Assembly (NCBI RefSeq): GCF_988243305.1
Contig: NZ_OZ547136.1
Reading direction: 5' to 3' (one strand)
DNA length: 64,000 nt
The notes below the pieces were generated by a model. It ran no database searches. It had not been told where the DNA came from and saw nothing but the letters and a program-made list of their open reading frames with translations. Positions 1-5,156 of the stretch are shown one piece after another. The translations under genes were made by a program, and so were the position numbers. The first letter of the stretch is position 1; each line of letters starts with the position of its first letter.

Positions 1-188
1 ATTACGGTAAGGACCTGTGGAGTACTTATCAGACCATCCAGGAGAATATGCTGAAAGGCGGGATTTCCGGTCGCAGTGCAAAAGGAAAACGTATCCACAC
101 CCGTGCCATTCACAGCATCGACACCGATATTAAGCTCAACCGCGCATTGTGGGTAATGGCAGAAACGCTGCTGGAGAGCCTGCGCTGA
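1..188 (+). CDS. C-terminal fragment of an island protein (possibly DUF932 family); 5' end lies outside the window
   Basis: Open frame from window edge to TGA at 186-188; stop overlaps the ATG of the next ORF; position upstream of antirestriction gene as in CP4-type islands. Family assignment is from memory, not verified. Confidence 0.45.
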   Translation, partial: YGKDLWSTYQTIQENMLKGGISGRSAKGKRIHTRAIHSIDTDIKLNRALWVMAETLLESLR

Positions 189-433
189 TGCAGCATGTCC
201 CTGAAGGCGTGATTCAGGCACCAGAATCACCCGACGCCCCGGAGGCGCTGCCGGGGTGTCGTTCCATTTCTGATGATGACCTGTGCGCCTGGTGTACCCG
301 TCTGCTTTACCGTCCCGGAGAAATCAGTCTGTGCAGACTGAGTACAGGCAATGGCATCTGGCCATCCGTCTGTGACCGGAACGGTTACGCGTACGGCTGT
401 CCGGAATTTCAGCCGAATATCATTCATCCCTGA
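188..433 (+). CDS. Small cysteine-rich hypothetical protein (81 aa), possibly DUF905/YkfF-like
   Basis: ATG at 188 overlaps upstream stop (TGATG), suggesting translational coupling; 7 Cys in 81 aa; sits between DUF932-like and antirestriction genes. Confidence 0.45.
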   Translation: MQHVPEGVIQAPESPDAPEALPGCRSISDDDLCAWCTRLLYRPGEISLCRLSTGNGIWPSVCDRNGYAYGCPEFQPNIIHP

Positions 434-526: not shown

Positions 527-1000
527 ATGAAAACATTGTCTCAGAACACCACCTCTTCGGCCTGTGCACCGGAGACTGGCCTGCAACAACTGGTTGCCAC
601 CATAGTCCCTGATGAACAGCGCATCAGCTTCTGGCCGCAGCATTTTGGCCTCATTCCACAGTGGGTGACCCTGGAGCCCCGTGTCTTCGGCTGGATGGAC
701 CGTCTGTGCGAAAACTACTGCGGTGGTATCTGGAATCTGTACACCCTGAACAACGGCGGGGCATTTATGGCCCCTGAACCGGATGACTATGATGACGAAA
801 CATGGGTACTGTTCAATGCCATGAACGGTAACCGCGCTGAAATGAGCCCGGAAGCCGCCGGCATTGCCGCCTGTCTGATGACGTACAGTCATCACGCCTG
901 CCGTACGGAGTGTTATGCCATGACGGTTCATTATTACCGTCTGCGGGATTACGCCCTGCAGCATCCGGAATGCAGCGCCATTATGCGCATTATTGACTGA
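527..1000 (+). CDS. Antirestriction protein, KlcA/ArdB family (YfjX/YafX-like)
   Basis: Translation MKTLSQNTTSSACAPETGLQQLVATIVPDEQRISFWPQHFG... matches my recollection of the K-12 prophage antirestriction paralogs; AAGGA RBS 9 nt upstream of ATG 527. Confidence 0.85.
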   Translation: MKTLSQNTTSSACAPETGLQQLVATIVPDEQRISFWPQHFGLIPQWVTLEPRVFGWMDRLCENYCGGIWNLYTLNNGGAFMAPEPDDYDDETWVLFNAMNGNRAEMSPEAAGIAACLMTYSHHACRTECYAMTVHYYRLRDYALQHPECSAIMRIID

Positions 1001-1015
1001 AAGGGGGCAGGAACA

Positions 1016-1492
1016 ATGCAACAGCTTTCCTTTCTGCCCGGAGAGATGACGCCCGGCGAGCGCAGTCTCATTCTGCGGGCCCTGAAAACCCTGGACCGCC
1101 ATCTTCATGAACCCGGCGTGGCCTTCACCTCCACCCGTGCGGCACGGGAATGGCTGATTCTGAACATGGCGGGACTGGAGCGTGAAGAGTTCCGGGTGCT
1201 GTATCTGAATAACCAGAATCAGCTGATTGCCGGTGAAACCCTCTTCACCGGCACCATCAACCGCACGGAAGTCCATCCCCGGGAAGTGATTAAACGCGCC
1301 CTGTATCACAATGCCGCAGCCGTGGTGCTGGCACACAATCACCCGTCCGGTGAAGTCACCCCCAGTAAGGCAGACCGCCTTATCACGGAACGTCTGGTAC
1401 AGGCACTGGGCCTGGTGGATATCCGGGTGCCGGACCATCTGATAGTCGGTGGCAGCCAGGTTTTCTCCTTTGCCGAACATGGTCTGCTTTAA
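1016..1492 (+). CDS. RadC-like JAB/MPN domain protein (YeeS/YkfG/YfjY family)
   Basis: 158-aa ORF with intact JAMM-type motif HNHPSGEVTPSKAD; conserved position after antirestriction gene. Confidence 0.9.
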   Translation: MQQLSFLPGEMTPGERSLILRALKTLDRHLHEPGVAFTSTRAAREWLILNMAGLEREEFRVLYLNNQNQLIAGETLFTGTINRTEVHPREVIKRALYHNAAAVVLAHNHPSGEVTPSKADRLITERLVQALGLVDIRVPDHLIVGGSQVFSFAEHGLL

Positions 1493-1554
1493 CCCGCCAC
1501 AACCACATCACACCTGTTTTCACTTTTATCTTCTGTCTTCAGAGGTATCCCATT

Positions 1555-1776
1555 ATGAAAATCATCACCCGTGGTGAAGCCATGCGTATTCACCAACAGC
1601 ATCCTGCATCCCGTCTTTTTCCGTTCTGTACCGGCAAATACCGCTGGCACGGCAGCACTGAAACGTATACCGGTCGTGAAGTGCAGGATATTCCCGGTGT
1701 GCTGGCCGTGTTTGCTGAACGCCGTAAGGACAGTTTTGGCCCGTATGTCCGGCTGATGAGCGTCACTCTGAACTGA
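1555..1776 (+). CDS. DUF987 protein (YeeT/YkfH/YpjJ-like)
   Basis: 73-aa translation MKIITRGEAMRIHQQHP...YVRLMSVTLN is near-identical to K-12 YeeT as I recall it. Confidence 0.85.
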   Translation: MKIITRGEAMRIHQQHPASRLFPFCTGKYRWHGSTETYTGREVQDIPGVLAVFAERRKDSFGPYVRLMSVTLN

Positions 1777-1794: not shown

Positions 1795-2439
1795 ATGAGC
1801 AGAATTATCACCACCACCGTGTATACACTGCATGAGCTATCCTCCACCGCACAGGAAAAAGCCCGCGACTGGTACCGTCAGCATCATGCTGACAGCAACT
1901 GGTATGAAAACGTGTATGAGGACTTCAGGGAGGTCTGTGGCATTTTCGGAATTGACCTCCGCCAGCGCGTTTTCCGGCTCAGCAACGGCAGGTTTATGGA
2001 AGAGCCGTGCATCTGGTTCAGCGGATTCTGCAGTCAGGGGGACGGAGCCTGTTTTGAAGGGCGCTGGCACTGGCAGCCAGCGACACCCCGGAAAATCAGG
2101 GAATATGCCCCTCAGGACCGTGAGCTTCATCGTATCGCGGATGCCCTGCAGGCGGTACAGAAGCGTAACTTCTGGCAGTTACAGGCTGAAATCAGTCACC
2201 GGGGACGTTACTGCCATCCGTACAGCATGGATATCACCGTCACCCGGAACAGTCCGACTGGTCAGGCACTGACAGCCGATGCGGAAGCCGCTGTCAGCGA
2301 AGCCCTGCGCGACCTGGCCTTCTGGCTGTACCGCCAGCTGGAAAACGAGTACGACTGGCTGACCTCAGACGCCGCTGTAGATGAGGCCATTCACATCAAT
2401 GCATATACCTTCACCGAAGCCGGTCTCCACGCCGGCTGA
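1795..2439 (+). CDS. Hypothetical protein (214 aa), unknown function, inserted between DUF987 gene and cbeA
   Basis: Uninterrupted 645-nt ORF; ATG preceded by AAGGG; Trp/Cys-rich; no family recognised. The K-12 yeeT-cbeA type modules have no gene here. Confidence 0.55.
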   Translation: MSRIITTTVYTLHELSSTAQEKARDWYRQHHADSNWYENVYEDFREVCGIFGIDLRQRVFRLSNGRFMEEPCIWFSGFCSQGDGACFEGRWHWQPATPRKIREYAPQDRELHRIADALQAVQKRNFWQLQAEISHRGRYCHPYSMDITVTRNSPTGQALTADAEAAVSEALRDLAFWLYRQLENEYDWLTSDAAVDEAIHINAYTFTEAGLHAG

Positions 2440-2488: not shown

Positions 2489-2866
2489 GTGTCAGACACA
2501 CTCCCCGGGACAACACTTCCCGACGACAATCACGACCGCCCCTGGTGGGGGCTGCCCTGCACCGTGACGCCCTGTTTCGGGGCACGTCTGGTGCAGGAGG
2601 GTAACCGGTTGCATTACCTTGCAGACCGCACCGGTATCAGAGGCCGGTTCAGCAATGCGGATGCATACCATCTGGACCAGGCTTTTCCACTGCTGATGAA
2701 ACAACTGGAACTCATGCTCACCAGCGGTGAACTGAATCCCCGCCATCAGCATACCGTCACGCTGTATGCGAAAGGGCTGACCTGCGAAGCTGATACCCTT
2801 GGCAGTTGTGGTTACGTTTATCTGGCTGTTTATCCGACACCGGCAGCACCCGCAATCACCGTATAA
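2489..2866 (+). CDS. cbeA: Type IV TA antitoxin CbeA (YeeU) homolog
   Basis: GTG start with GTGAGGA RBS; translation VSDTLPGTTLPDDNHDRPWWGLPCTVTPCFGARLVQEGNRLHYLADR... matches K-12 CbeA. Confidence 0.9.
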   Translation: MSDTLPGTTLPDDNHDRPWWGLPCTVTPCFGARLVQEGNRLHYLADRTGIRGRFSNADAYHLDQAFPLLMKQLELMLTSGELNPRHQHTVTLYAKGLTCEADTLGSCGYVYLAVYPTPAAPAITV

Positions 2867-2912
2867 CCCCGGATATCTCCCCTTTATCACCACCTGTTAC
2901 AGAGAACTTAAG

Positions 2913-3287
2913 ATGAATACATTACCCGACACTCACGTACGGGAGGCATCGGGCTGCCCGTCTCCCGTCACCATCTGGCAGACACTGCTCACCCGACTGC
3001 TGGACCAGCACTACGGCCTCACGCTGAATGACACACCGTTCGCTGATGAACGTGTGATTGAGCAGCATATTGAGGCAGGTATTTCACTGTGTGATGCGGT
3101 GAACTTTCTCGTGGAAAAATACGCGCTGGTGCGTACCGACCAGCCGGGATTCAGCGCCTGTACCCGCTCTCAGTTAATAAACAGCATCGATATCCTCCGG
3201 GCTCGCAGGGCGACCGGCCTGATGACCCGCGACAATTACAGAACGGTAAATAACATAACCCTGGGTAAGCATCCGGAGGCGAAATGA
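2913..3287 (+). CDS. cbtA: Type IV TA toxin CbtA (YeeV) homolog, cytoskeleton-targeting
   Basis: 124-aa translation; C-terminal ~100 aa (LLDQHYGLTLNDTPFADERVIEQHIEAGISLCDAVNFLVEKYALVR...) matches K-12 CbtA; N-terminus divergent. Confidence 0.9.
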   Translation: MNTLPDTHVREASGCPSPVTIWQTLLTRLLDQHYGLTLNDTPFADERVIEQHIEAGISLCDAVNFLVEKYALVRTDQPGFSACTRSQLINSIDILRARRATGLMTRDNYRTVNNITLGKHPEAK

Positions 3288-3775
3288 TGAAACTGGCCCT
3301 GACGCTGGAAGCCGACAGCGTTAACGTACAGGCACTGAACATGGGGCGCATTGTCGTTGACGTCGATGGTATTGAGCTTGCTGAACTGATTAACGTGGTC
3401 TGCGATAACGGTCACTCCCTTCGTGTTGTTGATGAATCTGACCGAGCCTCAACAGACTGCACGCCACCATTTGCTGCCCTGACCGGCATACGCTGCAGTA
3501 CCGCGCATATCACGGCAAAAGACAACGCCTGGCTGTACTCGCTGTCGCATCAGACGAATGACACCGGCGAATCAGAATGGATTCATTTTACAGGCAGCGG
3601 ATATCTGTTACGTACCGATGCGTGGTCATACCCGGTTCTGCGGCTTAAACGCCTGGGCCTGTCAAAAACGTTCCGCCGCCTGGTTGTCACACTCATCCGA
3701 CGTTATGGCGTCAGTCTCATTCATCTGGATGCCAGCGCTGAATGCCTGCCGGGTTTACCCACTTTCGACTGGTAA
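3284..3775 (+). CDS. DUF5983 protein (YeeW-like), overlaps cbtA stop
   Basis: ATG at 3284 overlaps cbtA stop (ATGATGA); 163-aa ORF in the conserved position after cbtA. Confidence 0.75.
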   Translation: MMKLALTLEADSVNVQALNMGRIVVDVDGIELAELINVVCDNGHSLRVVDESDRASTDCTPPFAALTGIRCSTAHITAKDNAWLYSLSHQTNDTGESEWIHFTGSGYLLRTDAWSYPVLRLKRLGLSKTFRRLVVTLIRRYGVSLIHLDASAECLPGLPTFDW

Positions 3776-3777
3776 CC

Positions 3778-3984
3778 ATGAACAACATGAAATCATTAAC
3801 CACGGAAACCGCACTGGATATTCTGATTGCGTGGCTGCAGGACAATATCGACTGCGAATCGGGAATTATCTTTGACAACGATGAGGATAAAACAGATTCG
3901 GCAGCACTGTTGCCCTGTATCGAACAGGCCAGGGAGGGTATCCGTACCCTGTGCCAACTGCAGCTTCTGCACCAGAACCGATGA
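3778..3984 (+). CDS. Small acidic hypothetical protein (68 aa), possibly DUF957-like
   Basis: ATG 2 nt after the previous stop; acidic DNDEDK stretch; family assignment from memory only. Confidence 0.5.
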   Translation: MNNMKSLTTETALDILIAWLQDNIDCESGIIFDNDEDKTDSAALLPCIEQAREGIRTLCQLQLLHQNR

Positions 3985-4073
3985 GTCTTACTCATTCACT
4001 CACCAGACTTCATTCCAATGACGTCAGCCTGAACAGGGCTGGCGTTTTCGTTTATAAACCAAAAGGAAAAACG

Positions 4074-4919
4074 ATGATGTCAGATATCACAATCTCCCGC
4101 CTGGAAGTGGTCAACGGACATACGGACATTATCTGCTCCACCTCAGTCAGCCACATTCTGGCTGTGCGAAAGACTACACTGCTGCAAATCGACACACTTA
4201 TCCGGCAACTGACTGAAATATCAGCAATGACAGAAAGTATTGGCGGTAAAACCGCACTGGACTGGGCCATGAAACAGGATTTTCGCTGCGGCTGCTGGCT
4301 CATGGATAAACCTGATACAGCAATGAAAGCTATCACCCGCAATCTCGATCGCGAAATCTGGCGTGACCTGATGCAATGCTCCGGGATGCTTTCCTTAATG
4401 GATGCACAGGCCCGTGATACATGGTACCGATCACTGGAGTACGATAATTTTCCGGAAATCAGTGAAGAGAATATTCTGAGTACGTTTGAGCAGCTACACC
4501 AGAATAAGGATGAAGTGTTTGAGCGAGGAGTGATCAACCTCTTCAGAGGGTTGAGCTGGAATTACAAAACCAATTGCCCCTGTAAATTTGGCAATAAAAT
4601 TATCGTCAACAATCTGGTGAGGTGGGACCGGTGGGGATTGCATCTTATCACCGGGCAACAGGCAGATAGACTTGCCGACCTGGAAAGAATGCTGCATCTG
4701 TTCAGCGGCAAACCGATCCCCGACAACAGGGAAAACATAACTATTCATCTGGACGAACATATCCGGTCTCTTCAGGGAAAAGAATGCTATGAAGATGAGA
4801 TGTTCATTATTAAATACTTTAAGAAGGGCTCTGCGCACATCACGTTCAGGAAGCCAGAACTGGTTGACAGACTGAATGATATTATCGCAAAACACTATCC
4901 TGATATGCTGGCAGTATAG
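4074..4919 (+). CDS. Hypothetical protein (281 aa), island cargo next to serX; possibly DUF4942-like
   Basis: AAGGAAAA RBS before ATG 4074; long ORF with lower GC than core; no catalytic motif recognised. Confidence 0.6.
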   Translation: MMSDITISRLEVVNGHTDIICSTSVSHILAVRKTTLLQIDTLIRQLTEISAMTESIGGKTALDWAMKQDFRCGCWLMDKPDTAMKAITRNLDREIWRDLMQCSGMLSLMDAQARDTWYRSLEYDNFPEISEENILSTFEQLHQNKDEVFERGVINLFRGLSWNYKTNCPCKFGNKIIVNNLVRWDRWGLHLITGQQADRLADLERMLHLFSGKPIPDNRENITIHLDEHIRSLQGKECYEDEMFIIKYFKKGSAHITFRKPELVDRLNDIIAKHYPDMLAV

Positions 4920-5026: not shown

Positions 5027-5060
5027 AATAAAAAAGCGCATGTTAAACAATAACATGCGC
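5027..5060 (-). terminator. Rho-independent terminator of serX
   Basis: Perfect 10-bp inverted repeat GCGCATGTTA/TAACATGCGC with 5-nt loop, followed on the minus strand by a T-tract, just downstream of the tRNA 3' end. Confidence 0.7.
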
Positions 5061-5068
5061 TTGTAATC

Positions 5069-5156
5069 TGGCGGTGAGGGGGGGATTCGAACCCCCGATA
5101 CGTTGCCGTATACACACTTTCCAGGCGTGCTCCTTCAGCCACTCGGACACCTCACC
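5069..5156 (-). tRNA. serX: tRNA-Ser (GGA), serX
   Basis: Reverse complement reads GGTGAGGTGTCCGAGTGGCTGAAGGAGCACGCCTGGAAAGTGTGTATACGGCAACGTATCGGGGGTTCGAATCCCCCCCTCACCGCCA: 88 nt, long variable arm, CCA end. Confidence 0.95.

What the first reader, a model, noticed from the sequence alone, without database searches (positions are those of the whole stretch)
2489..3775. CbeA/CbtA type IV toxin-antitoxin paralog with overlapping DUF5983 gene
The antitoxin uses a GTG start, the toxin is near-identical to K-12 CbtA over its C-terminal ~100 residues but has a divergent N-terminus, and the downstream DUF5983 ORF starts inside the toxin stop codon. This is a known system. The divergent toxin N-terminus could change target preference (CbtA inhibits FtsZ/MreB polymerisation in K-12).
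Basis: established knowledge. Interest (0 to 1): 0.3.

Follow-up and report, generated by a model that had tools for sequence, protein, structure and literature searches.

The report
Known CbeA/CbtA toxin-antitoxin paralog
This is an intact, already annotated extra copy of the E. coli CbeA/CbtA toxin-antitoxin module at the end of a serX tRNA island of UTI89-like strains; its "divergent" toxin N-terminus is a common alternative allele spread by recombination, so the finding is ordinary.

Summary
Window 2489-2866 is cbeA (GTG start), 2913-3287 is a CbtA-family toxin, and 3284-3775 is a two-domain DUF5983 gene whose ATG overlaps the toxin stop (ATGA). RefSeq annotates exactly these genes in UTI89, which matches at 99.9% identity.

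None of the three "odd" features is unusual:
- K-12 cbeA also starts at GTG.
- The 4-nt toxin/DUF5983 overlap is also found in K-12 and other loci.
- The toxin N-terminus starts at the homologous ATG. It is one of two widespread haplotypes (MNTLPDTHVRE..C15 versus K-12 MKTLPVLPGQ..R15).

The differences from K-12 lie in a ~155-bp patch (cbeA 3' end, spacer, toxin codons 1-27). There dS is 0.65, against 0.11 in the rest of the toxin gene, so the patch is a recombination mosaic rather than local divergence.

The FtsZ determinant F65 is kept. R15, whose R15C change abolishes MreB binding in K-12 CbtA, is naturally Cys here, as in YpjF and YkfI. An altered target preference is therefore plausible but untested.

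The UTI89 copy of this locus was enriched 9.6-fold in a published filamentation screen. DUF5983 function remains unknown.

Verdict: already known, low interest.

The parts
2489..2866 (+). cbeA (YeeU-family antitoxin), 125 aa, GTG start
   Evidence: Pfam PF06154 at E=1.1e-54. It is 92% identical to K-12 CbeA and 119/125 identical to the solved chain PDB 2INW, including the AAPA[I/T]TV tail. PGAP CDS WP_001552747.1 has the same boundaries. K-12 cbeA uses the homologous GTG.
2867..2912 (+). 46-nt cbeA-toxin spacer (88 nt in K-12), part of the divergent patch
   Evidence: DNA alignment with K-12 shows indels and low identity here. The K-12 spacer length is given in PMC5371832.
2913..3287 (+). CbtA-family toxin, 124 aa (WP_001094434.1), with F65 conserved and C15 in place of K-12 R15
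   Evidence: Pfam PF06755 at E=1.6e-64. It is 90% identical to K-12 CbtA, with 12 of 13 differences in residues 2-27. It is identical to the UTI89 serX-island protein. The UTI89 locus was enriched 9.6-fold in a filamentation screen (PMC6206680).
2838..2992 (+). Recombinant patch: cbeA codons ~117-125, the spacer, and toxin codons 1-27
   Evidence: Identity to K-12 CP4-44 is 95.7% in the cbeA body, 72% over 57% of the patch, and 97.3% in the cbtA body. Toxin codons 1-27 have dS 0.65 and dN 0.41; codons 28-124 have dS 0.107 and dN 0.005. The patch matches in 3794 of 5426 complete E. coli genomes.
3284..3775 (+). Two-domain DUF5983 gene (163 aa), translationally coupled to the toxin. ATGA overlap; GGAGG at 3275-3279 inside the toxin 3' end
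1795..2439 (+). 214-aa hypothetical gene inserted between DUF987 and cbeA; context only, absent from K-12 CP4-44
   Evidence: No Pfam, NCBIfam or PADLOC match; PHROG 5162, unknown function. It is conserved in the JA0257, HM670 and ST131 loci.
527..1776 (+). Conserved upstream island genes: antirestriction (527-1000), RadC/JAB (1016-1492), DUF987 (1555-1776)
   Evidence: Pfam matches. PGAP annotation. The order is the same as in K-12 CP4-44, CP4-6 and CP4-57.
3787..4919 (+). Downstream island genes: DUF957 (3787-3984) and DUF4942 (4077-4919)
   Evidence: PGAP annotation. Pfam DUF4942 at E=4e-70.
5069..5156 (-). tRNA-Ser(GGA) serX, the island boundary; ghrA-ycdXYZ follow
   Evidence: ARAGORN and Rfam. 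In K-12, serX lies next to ghrA with no island.

Best explanation
The locus is an intact paralogous copy of the CbeA/CbtA (YeeU/YeeV) toxin-antitoxin module. It lies at the tRNA-proximal end of a P4/CP4-type genomic island integrated at serX in a phylogroup-B2 ExPEC (UTI89/ST95-like) chromosome.

Inferred from K-12 homologs: the 124-aa toxin binds the H6/H7 loop of FtsZ through a surface that includes the invariant F65 and blocks division. It may also bind the flat face of MreB. The upstream CbeA antitoxin counteracts it, in the published type IV model by bundling and stabilising FtsZ and MreB polymers rather than by binding the toxin.

Shown here: the genes are read as one + strand cluster with short gaps. 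The DUF5983 gene is translationally coupled to the toxin through the ATGA overlap and an SD inside the toxin 3' end.

Shown here: the 'divergent N-terminus' is a separately inherited haplotype of a ~155-bp segment (cbeA tail, spacer, toxin codons 1-27). Homologous recombination among the many CbtA loci of E. coli has placed it next to K-12-like flanks. It is not a mis-called start and not a local burst of change.
For: Family membership:
- Pfam E-values of 1e-54 and 1.6e-64.
- 90-92% identity to K-12 proteins.
- Identical PGAP calls.

Paralogy: UTI89 also carries a K-12-identical CbtA at the CP4-44 site. E. coli genomes hold a median of 3 and up to 14 such places.

Mosaicism:
- Segment identities to K-12 are 95.7% (cbeA body), 72% (patch) and 97.3% (cbtA body). 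JA0257 is 100% identical from the toxin body onward but only 92.6% in cbeA.
- dS is 0.65 in codons 1-27 against 0.107 in codons 28-124.
- Both N-terminal haplotypes occur with the same C-terminal body in database proteins.
- The window patch is in 3794 of 5426 genomes and the K-12 patch in 4510 of 5426.

Functionality:
- All ORFs are intact.
- dN/dS is 0.13-0.37 for cbeA, cbtA and DUF5983.
- F65 is invariant.
- UTI89 region 1,139,704-1,141,232, which is this module, was a high-stringency hit (9.6-fold, both replicates) in a filament-sorting expression screen (PMC6206680).

Mechanism: from PMC5624674 and PMC5371832.
Against: - No direct test of toxicity or neutralisation exists for this allele alone. 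The screen hit spans cbeA, the toxin and DUF5983, and was not dissected.
- R15, the only mapped MreB determinant of K-12 CbtA, is Cys here, so dual targeting cannot be assumed.
- No sigma-70-like promoter was found immediately upstream, so the transcription unit is inferred only from gene packing.
- The type IV mode (no toxin-antitoxin contact) rests on K-12 work and could not be tested.
Confidence: 0.9

Rival explanations
1. The N-terminal difference is an annotation artefact: the true toxin start is elsewhere and the aligned N-termini are not homologous.
For: A longer in-frame ORF starts at TTG 2799. The SD before ATG 2913 is weak.
Against: - Both proteins align without gaps from Met1 with a conserved M-x-T-L-P.
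- PGAP picks the same ATG.
- All full-length family members start at this position.
- The TTG extension overlaps cbeA and has no homolog.
- The upstream spacer differs by indels between loci.
Confidence: 0.02
2. The allele is functionally specialised. With Cys15 on an otherwise K-12 CbtA body, it behaves like the engineered CbtA-R15C: it blocks FtsZ only and gives filaments instead of lemon-shaped cells.
For: - R15C specifically abolishes the CbtA-MreB interaction and gives filaments (PMC5624674).
- The window toxin has C15 and is 96/97 identical to K-12 CbtA from residue 28.
- The locus was recovered in a filament-sorting screen.
- Residues 6-16 are the most variable segment of the family, at 1.64 bits against 0.41 in the core.
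Against: - YpjF and YkfI have C15 natively. YpjF still binds MreB, and C15R changed nothing in either.
- Eleven other N-terminal residues also differ, so context is unknown.
- The K-12-type CP4-44 copy of UTI89 was also enriched 5.3-fold in one replicate of the same screen, so the screen does not discriminate.
- C15 is the majority state in the family, 55 versus 22.
Confidence: 0.15
3. The unit is really a three-gene module. The translationally coupled DUF5983 protein, through its CbtA-linked N-domain, modulates the toxin or antitoxin. K-12-based work missed this because yeeW is truncated there.
For: - The 4-nt overlap is conserved in K-12, strain 110, ST131, JA0257 and a 65%-identical metagenomic locus.
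- GGAGG lies inside the toxin 3' end.
- dN/dS is 0.19-0.28.
- Two-domain DUF5983 proteins were found directly downstream of CbtA in the two divergent contigs examined.
- K-12 YeeW keeps exactly the N-domain.
- The CbtA/DUF5983 pairing was reported across all STs but ST11 (PMC10790755).
Against: - The K-12 two-gene pair is sufficient for toxicity and rescue (PMC5371832, PMC5624674).
- DUF5983 is frameshifted in HM670.
- The C-domain occurs without CbtA next to a relaxase and in lytic phages.
- The following genes, DUF957 and DUF4942, are equally tightly packed, so coupling may be mere operon compaction.
- No fold relative was found to suggest an activity.
Confidence: 0.2
4. The cluster is primarily cargo of a mobile-element 'leading region' (antirestriction, RadC/JAB, DUF987, CbeA, CbtA, DUF5983). 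It would act at element entry or establishment, or in addiction of the island, rather than as a host stress-response TA.
For: - The order is conserved with antirestriction and DUF932 genes.
- A DUF5983 C-domain homolog sits beside DUF932, NikA-like and relaxase genes.
- CbeA, YagB and YfjZ are translocated through the F T4SS (PMC11288057).
- The module sits at the tRNA-proximal island end.
Against: This is contextual inference only. No transfer genes lie in the part of the island inside the window. It is compatible with, not exclusive of, the TA explanation.
Confidence: 0.3

Closest known systems
CbeA/CbtA (YeeU/YeeV) with YeeW of cryptic prophage CP4-44, E. coli K-12
   Same: - Same Pfam families, gene order, GTG antitoxin start and 4-nt toxin/yeeW overlap.
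- cbeA body is 95.7% and cbtA body 97.3% identical in DNA.
- F65 is conserved.
- Same upstream RadC/JAB and DUF987 genes.
   Different: - The 155-bp patch differs: CbeA tail AAPAITV versus EMKN, spacer 46 versus 88 nt, and 12 substitutions in toxin residues 2-27, including R15->C.
- DUF5983 is full-length (163 aa) versus the 64-aa YeeW remnant.
- There is an extra 214-aa gene upstream of cbeA.
- The location is the serX island instead of the CP4-44 site.
YpjF/YfjZ (CP4-57) and YkfI/YafW (CP4-6), E. coli K-12
   Same: Same two families. Cys at toxin position 15. F65 conserved. Same upstream gene set.
   Different: - Only 58-66% (toxin) and 62-65% (antitoxin) identical.
- Those toxins lack the ~12-residue C-terminal tail, and their antitoxins lack the 14-residue N-terminal extension.
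- No DUF5983 gene follows them in K-12.
Shigella flexneri YeeU, PDB 2INW (and E. coli YeeU, 2H28)
   Same: The antitoxin is 119/125 identical to 2INW, including the AAPA-TV tail, so its fold is experimentally known.
   Different: Six substitutions. No toxin or complex structure exists for any family member.
UTI89_C1148/C1149, the serX-island cbeA/cbtA of UPEC UTI89 (Mediati et al. 2018)
   Same: Identical toxin protein and 99.9% identical DNA. This is effectively the same locus.
   Different: One base differs in 1361. The screen did not dissect which gene causes filamentation.

Membership tests
CbtA/CbeA type IV toxin-antitoxin system | Toxin belongs to the CbtA_toxin family (PF06755) | tested here: met
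   E=1.6e-64, profile 1-112 of 112. 90% identity to K-12 CbtA.
CbtA/CbeA type IV toxin-antitoxin system | Antitoxin belongs to the CbeA_antitoxin family (PF06154) with the YeeU fold | tested here: met
   E=1.1e-54. 119/125 identical to the solved 2INW chain and E=2.7e-78 to 2H28.
CbtA/CbeA type IV toxin-antitoxin system | Antitoxin gene immediately upstream of the toxin on the same strand | tested here: met
   cbeA 2489-2866, toxin 2913-3287, 46-nt spacer.
CbtA/CbeA type IV toxin-antitoxin system | FtsZ-interaction determinant F65 conserved | tested here: met
   F65 is invariant in all aligned members. Its role is from PMC5624674.
CbtA/CbeA type IV toxin-antitoxin system | MreB-interaction determinant R15 of K-12 CbtA | tested here: not met
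   Position 15 is Cys. The same holds for the accepted members YpjF and YkfI, and for 55 of 78 close representatives. R15 therefore defines the K-12 allele, not the family.
CbtA/CbeA type IV toxin-antitoxin system | Toxin overexpression blocks division or alters shape, and the antitoxin rescues it | not testable with these tools
   Indirect only: the identical UTI89 locus was enriched 9.6-fold among sorted filaments (PMC6206680). Rescue was not tested.
CbtA/CbeA type IV toxin-antitoxin system | Type IV mode: the antitoxin acts on the targets (FtsZ/MreB bundling), not by binding the toxin | not testable with these tools
   Known only for K-12 CbeA (summarised in PMC5371832).
CP4/P4-like island terminal gene cluster | Conserved order antirestriction - RadC/JAB - DUF987 - antitoxin - toxin next to a tRNA attachment site | tested here: met
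   Pfam and PGAP annotation. Same order in CP4-44, CP4-6 and CP4-57. tRNA-Ser serX lies at 5069-5156.
DUF5983 (YeeW) family | DUF5983_N plus DUF5983 C-terminal domain, encoded directly downstream of cbtA | tested here: met
   PF25638 at 1e-31 and PF19419 at 2.7e-22. Same arrangement in L006, L007, L008, L015 and L016.

The most novel reading that the evidence does not exclude
All mechanistic work on CbtA/CbeA used K-12, where the third gene (yeeW) is cut down to its N-domain and the toxin carries R15. The intact form seen here might be the native state: a three-gene module in which the translationally coupled two-domain DUF5983 protein modulates the toxin. In that module, the common C15 N-terminal haplotype on a CbtA body would give an FtsZ-only, filament-inducing toxin, like the engineered R15C. 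That would be relevant to UPEC filamentation. Neither part is excluded by the evidence, and neither is shown.
Probability: 0.12. Interest if true: 0.45.

Novelty: already known. Interest (0 to 1): 0.12.

Why it matters
It matters little as a discovery. The module is annotated in RefSeq, belongs to a well-studied family, and the identical UTI89 locus has already appeared in a published screen.

Its modest value is as a natural experiment. It combines a K-12-type CbtA body with the alternative N-terminal haplotype (C15) and an intact DUF5983 partner. Simple swaps between this allele and K-12 CbtA could map the still unknown MreB determinants and test whether DUF5983 belongs to the system.

Tried and rejected
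- **Mis-called start codon.** Rejected by colinear alignment from Met1 and family-wide conservation of the start.
- **In-situ rapid divergence of the N-terminus.** Rejected in favour of recombination, because synonymous divergence is also about 6-fold higher there and the same patch occurs with other flanks.
- **Using the UTI89 filamentation screen to argue for an FtsZ-only phenotype.** Rejected, because the K-12-type copy was also enriched in one replicate.
- **CbtA structure.** The AF2 model was too weak for a fold search (pLDDT 68). It shows only that residues 1-11 are low-confidence and that helix 1 spans 18-34.
- **Library scans.** PADLOC and NCBIfam gave no hits, and PHROGs gave only unknown-function families. 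Rfam found only the tRNA.
- **Promoter scan.** Nothing convincing upstream of cbeA.
- **Literature.** Tan et al. 2011 (PMC3021753) is not held, so the reported YeeV truncation data could not be checked. The 'YeeW' literature search returned only noise.
- **Third UTI89 copy.** The third CbtA-like place in UTI89 was not located.

Full report
**What is there**

The first 5.2 kb of the window is the tRNA-proximal end of a genomic island. All genes are on the + strand with short gaps:
- antirestriction, 527-1000
- RadC/JAB, 1016-1492
- DUF987, 1555-1776
- a 214-aa hypothetical, 1795-2439
- cbeA, 2489-2866
- a CbtA-family toxin, 2913-3287
- DUF5983, 3284-3775
- DUF957, 3787-3984
- DUF4942, 4077-4919

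These are followed by tRNA-Ser(GGA) on the minus strand (5069-5156) and the core genes ghrA-ycdX-ycdY-ycdZ. In K-12 the same tRNA (serX, b1032) lies next to ghrA with no island.

The 1361-bp stretch around the finding is 100% identical to several human ExPEC isolates. It is 99.9% identical to UTI89, NU14, IHE3034 and APEC O18.

**Check of the observation**

- Pfam scores leave no doubt about identity: CbeA_antitoxin 1.1e-54, CbtA_toxin 1.6e-64, DUF5983_N 1e-31 and DUF5983 C-domain 2.7e-22.
- The antitoxin starts at GTG 2489, 7 nt after a GAGGA.
- The toxin starts at ATG 2913.
- The DUF5983 ATG (3284-3286) overlaps the toxin TGA (3285-3287), with GGAGG at 3275-3279 inside the toxin's last codons. 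A second ATG at 3287 is an equally plausible start and still overlaps the stop codon.
- Against K-12 CbtA the toxin is 111/124 identical. Twelve of the 13 differences lie in residues 2-27; from residue 28 on, only Y120H differs.

So the description is accurate.

**The 'unusual' features are the family norm**

- K-12 cbeA is annotated from the homologous GTG. Of five other loci examined, four use GTG and one uses ATG.
- The 4-nt toxin/DUF5983 overlap is present in K-12 (cbtA/yeeW), strain 110, JA0257 and ST131. It is also present in a metagenomic locus whose DUF5983 is only 65% identical.
- The toxin N-terminus aligns without gaps from Met1 (M-x-T-L-P).

**What the divergent N-terminus is**

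E. coli CbtA proteins fall into two main N-terminal haplotypes:
- M[K/N]TLPDTHVREAS-x-C-P-SPVTIWQTLLTR, the type in the window
- MKTLPVLPGQAASSRPSPVEIWQ[I/T]LL[S/T]R, the K-12 CbtA type

Both are found joined to the same C-terminal body. Among 78 close cluster representatives with an intact N-terminus, 43 carry DTHVR and 16 carry VLPGQ.

At the DNA level the difference from K-12 is a ~155-bp patch (2838-2992). It also covers the last nine cbeA codons (tail AAPAITV versus EMKN) and the spacer (46 versus 88 nt). Identity to CP4-44 is 95.7% in the cbeA body, about 72% over only 57% of the patch, and 97.3% in the toxin body.

Synonymous divergence is 0.65 in toxin codons 1-27 against 0.107 in codons 28-124. 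The patch therefore has an older, separate ancestry. That is the signature of recombination rather than local accelerated change.

A second breakpoint is visible against strain JA0257. That locus is 100% identical from the toxin body through DUF957 and encodes the identical toxin protein, but its cbeA is only 92.6% identical.

Both patches are widespread. The window type matches in 3794 of 5426 complete genomes and the K-12 type in 4510. Genomes hold a median of three CbtA-like places and up to 14. UTI89 itself also carries a K-12-identical cbeA-cbtA-yeeW at the CP4-44 site, so the window locus is a true paralog with ample substrate for gene conversion.

**How it most likely works**

By homology, the toxin binds the H6/H7 loop of FtsZ. 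F65, whose F65S change abolishes that interaction in CbtA, YpjF and YkfI, is invariant here. The antitoxin is 119/125 identical to the solved Shigella YeeU (2INW). In the K-12 model it neutralises the toxin by bundling FtsZ and MreB polymers, without contacting the toxin.

All three genes are under purifying selection, with dN/dS of 0.13-0.37.

There is experimental support for activity of this very locus. In a UTI89 genomic expression library sorted for filamentous cells, region 1,139,704-1,141,232 was one of 23 high-stringency hits, enriched 9.6-fold in both replicates (PMC6206680). That region matches the module, whose UTI89 coordinates are 1,139,952-1,141,238. The hit was not dissected further.

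**Target preference**

In K-12 CbtA the substitution R15C selectively destroys the MreB interaction and turns the lemon-cell phenotype into filamentation (PMC5624674). The window toxin has Cys15 on a body that is otherwise K-12 CbtA from residue 28.

Several points weaken it:
- YpjF and YkfI carry C15 natively, YpjF still binds MreB, and C15R changed nothing in either.
- Position 15 is a family-wide C/R dimorphism with C in the majority, 55 versus 22.
- Eleven other residues differ in the same segment.
- The K-12-type copy of UTI89 was also enriched (5.3-fold, one replicate) in the filament screen, so that screen does not discriminate.

Residues 6-16 are the most variable part of the family (1.64 bits against 0.41 in the core). 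They are low-confidence in a modest AF2 model: pLDDT is below 50 for residues 1-11, and helix 1 spans residues 18-34. An altered MreB affinity is possible but unproven; I rate it about 0.15.

**DUF5983**

The family is small, with 217 hits among 1.84 billion representatives. Its C-domain carries a CSTAHIT..DN ... FDW motif, with H75 and D80 invariant.

Context look-ups show two patterns:
- Two-domain proteins (DUF5983_N plus C) lie directly downstream of CbtA, even at 52-65% identity.
- C-domain proteins with no or another N-domain lie elsewhere. One sits beside DUF932, NikA-like and relaxase genes; another sits next to an SLT transglycosylase.

K-12 YeeW retains exactly the N-domain.

This, the conserved coupling and the reported CbtA/DUF5983 association across sequence types (PMC10790755) keep open the idea of a third component. 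Against it, the K-12 pair works without the C-domain, the gene is frameshifted in HM670, and the neighbouring genes are packed just as tightly.

**Comparison and verdict**

The locus meets every testable defining feature of the CbtA/CbeA family and of the CP4-type island terminal cluster. The one feature not met, R15, is specific to the K-12 allele and is not a family feature.

The locus is annotated in RefSeq and was named as cbeA/yeeU-cbtA/yeeV in a published UTI89 screen. It is therefore already known. Interest is low.

The residual value is as a ready-made natural chimera for mapping CbtA's MreB determinants and for testing whether full-length DUF5983 belongs to the system.

Noticed in passing
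window 1795-2439 (+): A 214-aa ORF sits between DUF987 and cbeA. It has no Pfam, NCBIfam or PADLOC match, and its only hit is PHROG 5162 (unknown function). It is absent from K-12 CP4-44 and from strain 110, but conserved (95-99.7% DNA identity, dN/dS ~0.3) in the JA0257, HM670 and ST131 loci. In HM670, PGAP calls its pseudogenised copy 'antitoxin of toxin-antitoxin stability system'.
   Followed up: partly
window 3284-3775; L012 852-1421; L002 4941-5135: The DUF5983 N-domain was seen only in proteins encoded directly after cbtA. The C-domain also occurs alone or with another N-domain, next to DUF932/NikA-like/relaxase genes and in lytic phages. K-12 YeeW (64 aa) is exactly the N-domain.
   Followed up: partly
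L007 (E. coli JA0257) 1147-2639 versus window 2489-3984: The toxin protein is identical (WP_001094434.1) and the DNA is 100% identical from the toxin body to DUF957, but the cbeA allele differs (92.6% DNA, WP_001285482.1). One toxin allele is therefore naturally paired with different antitoxin alleles.
   Followed up: partly
window 3284-3289: Two adjacent in-frame ATG codons (ATGATG) lie at the DUF5983 start. The GGAGG at 3275-3279 is 4 nt from the first and 7 nt from the second, and the ST131 and metagenomic homologs begin at the equivalent of the second (MKLALT/MKLSLT). The annotated start may be one codon too early.
   Followed up: no
window 5069-5156 (-) and 5034-5062 (-): tRNA-Ser(GGA) serX marks the island end, with its 3' end facing the island. 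A 12-bp-stem terminator-like hairpin follows the tRNA. K-12 has serX next to ghrA without this island.
   Followed up: partly
window 3787-3984 (+): PGAP names this 65-aa ORF 'DUF957 domain-containing', but the Pfam copy used here gives no hit at E<=0.01. A 2026 preprint (10.64898/2026.06.09.728211) reports an AntiFam entry (ANF00264) recurrently adjacent to DUF5983 and cbtA. Whether that entry corresponds to this ORF was not checked.
   Followed up: no
literature, relates to window 2489-2866: CbeA, YagB and YfjZ were among 32 chromosomal E. coli proteins translocated through an F-plasmid T4SS as Cre fusions (PMC11288057). Together with the antirestriction and DUF932 neighbours, this hints at an entry or establishment role for the cluster.
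   Followed up: no
window 188-433 (+): An 81-aa hypothetical (PGAP WP_001164966.1 in UTI89) lies upstream of the antirestriction gene and has no Pfam match. A GC-rich hairpin (232-261) lies inside it.
   Followed up: no
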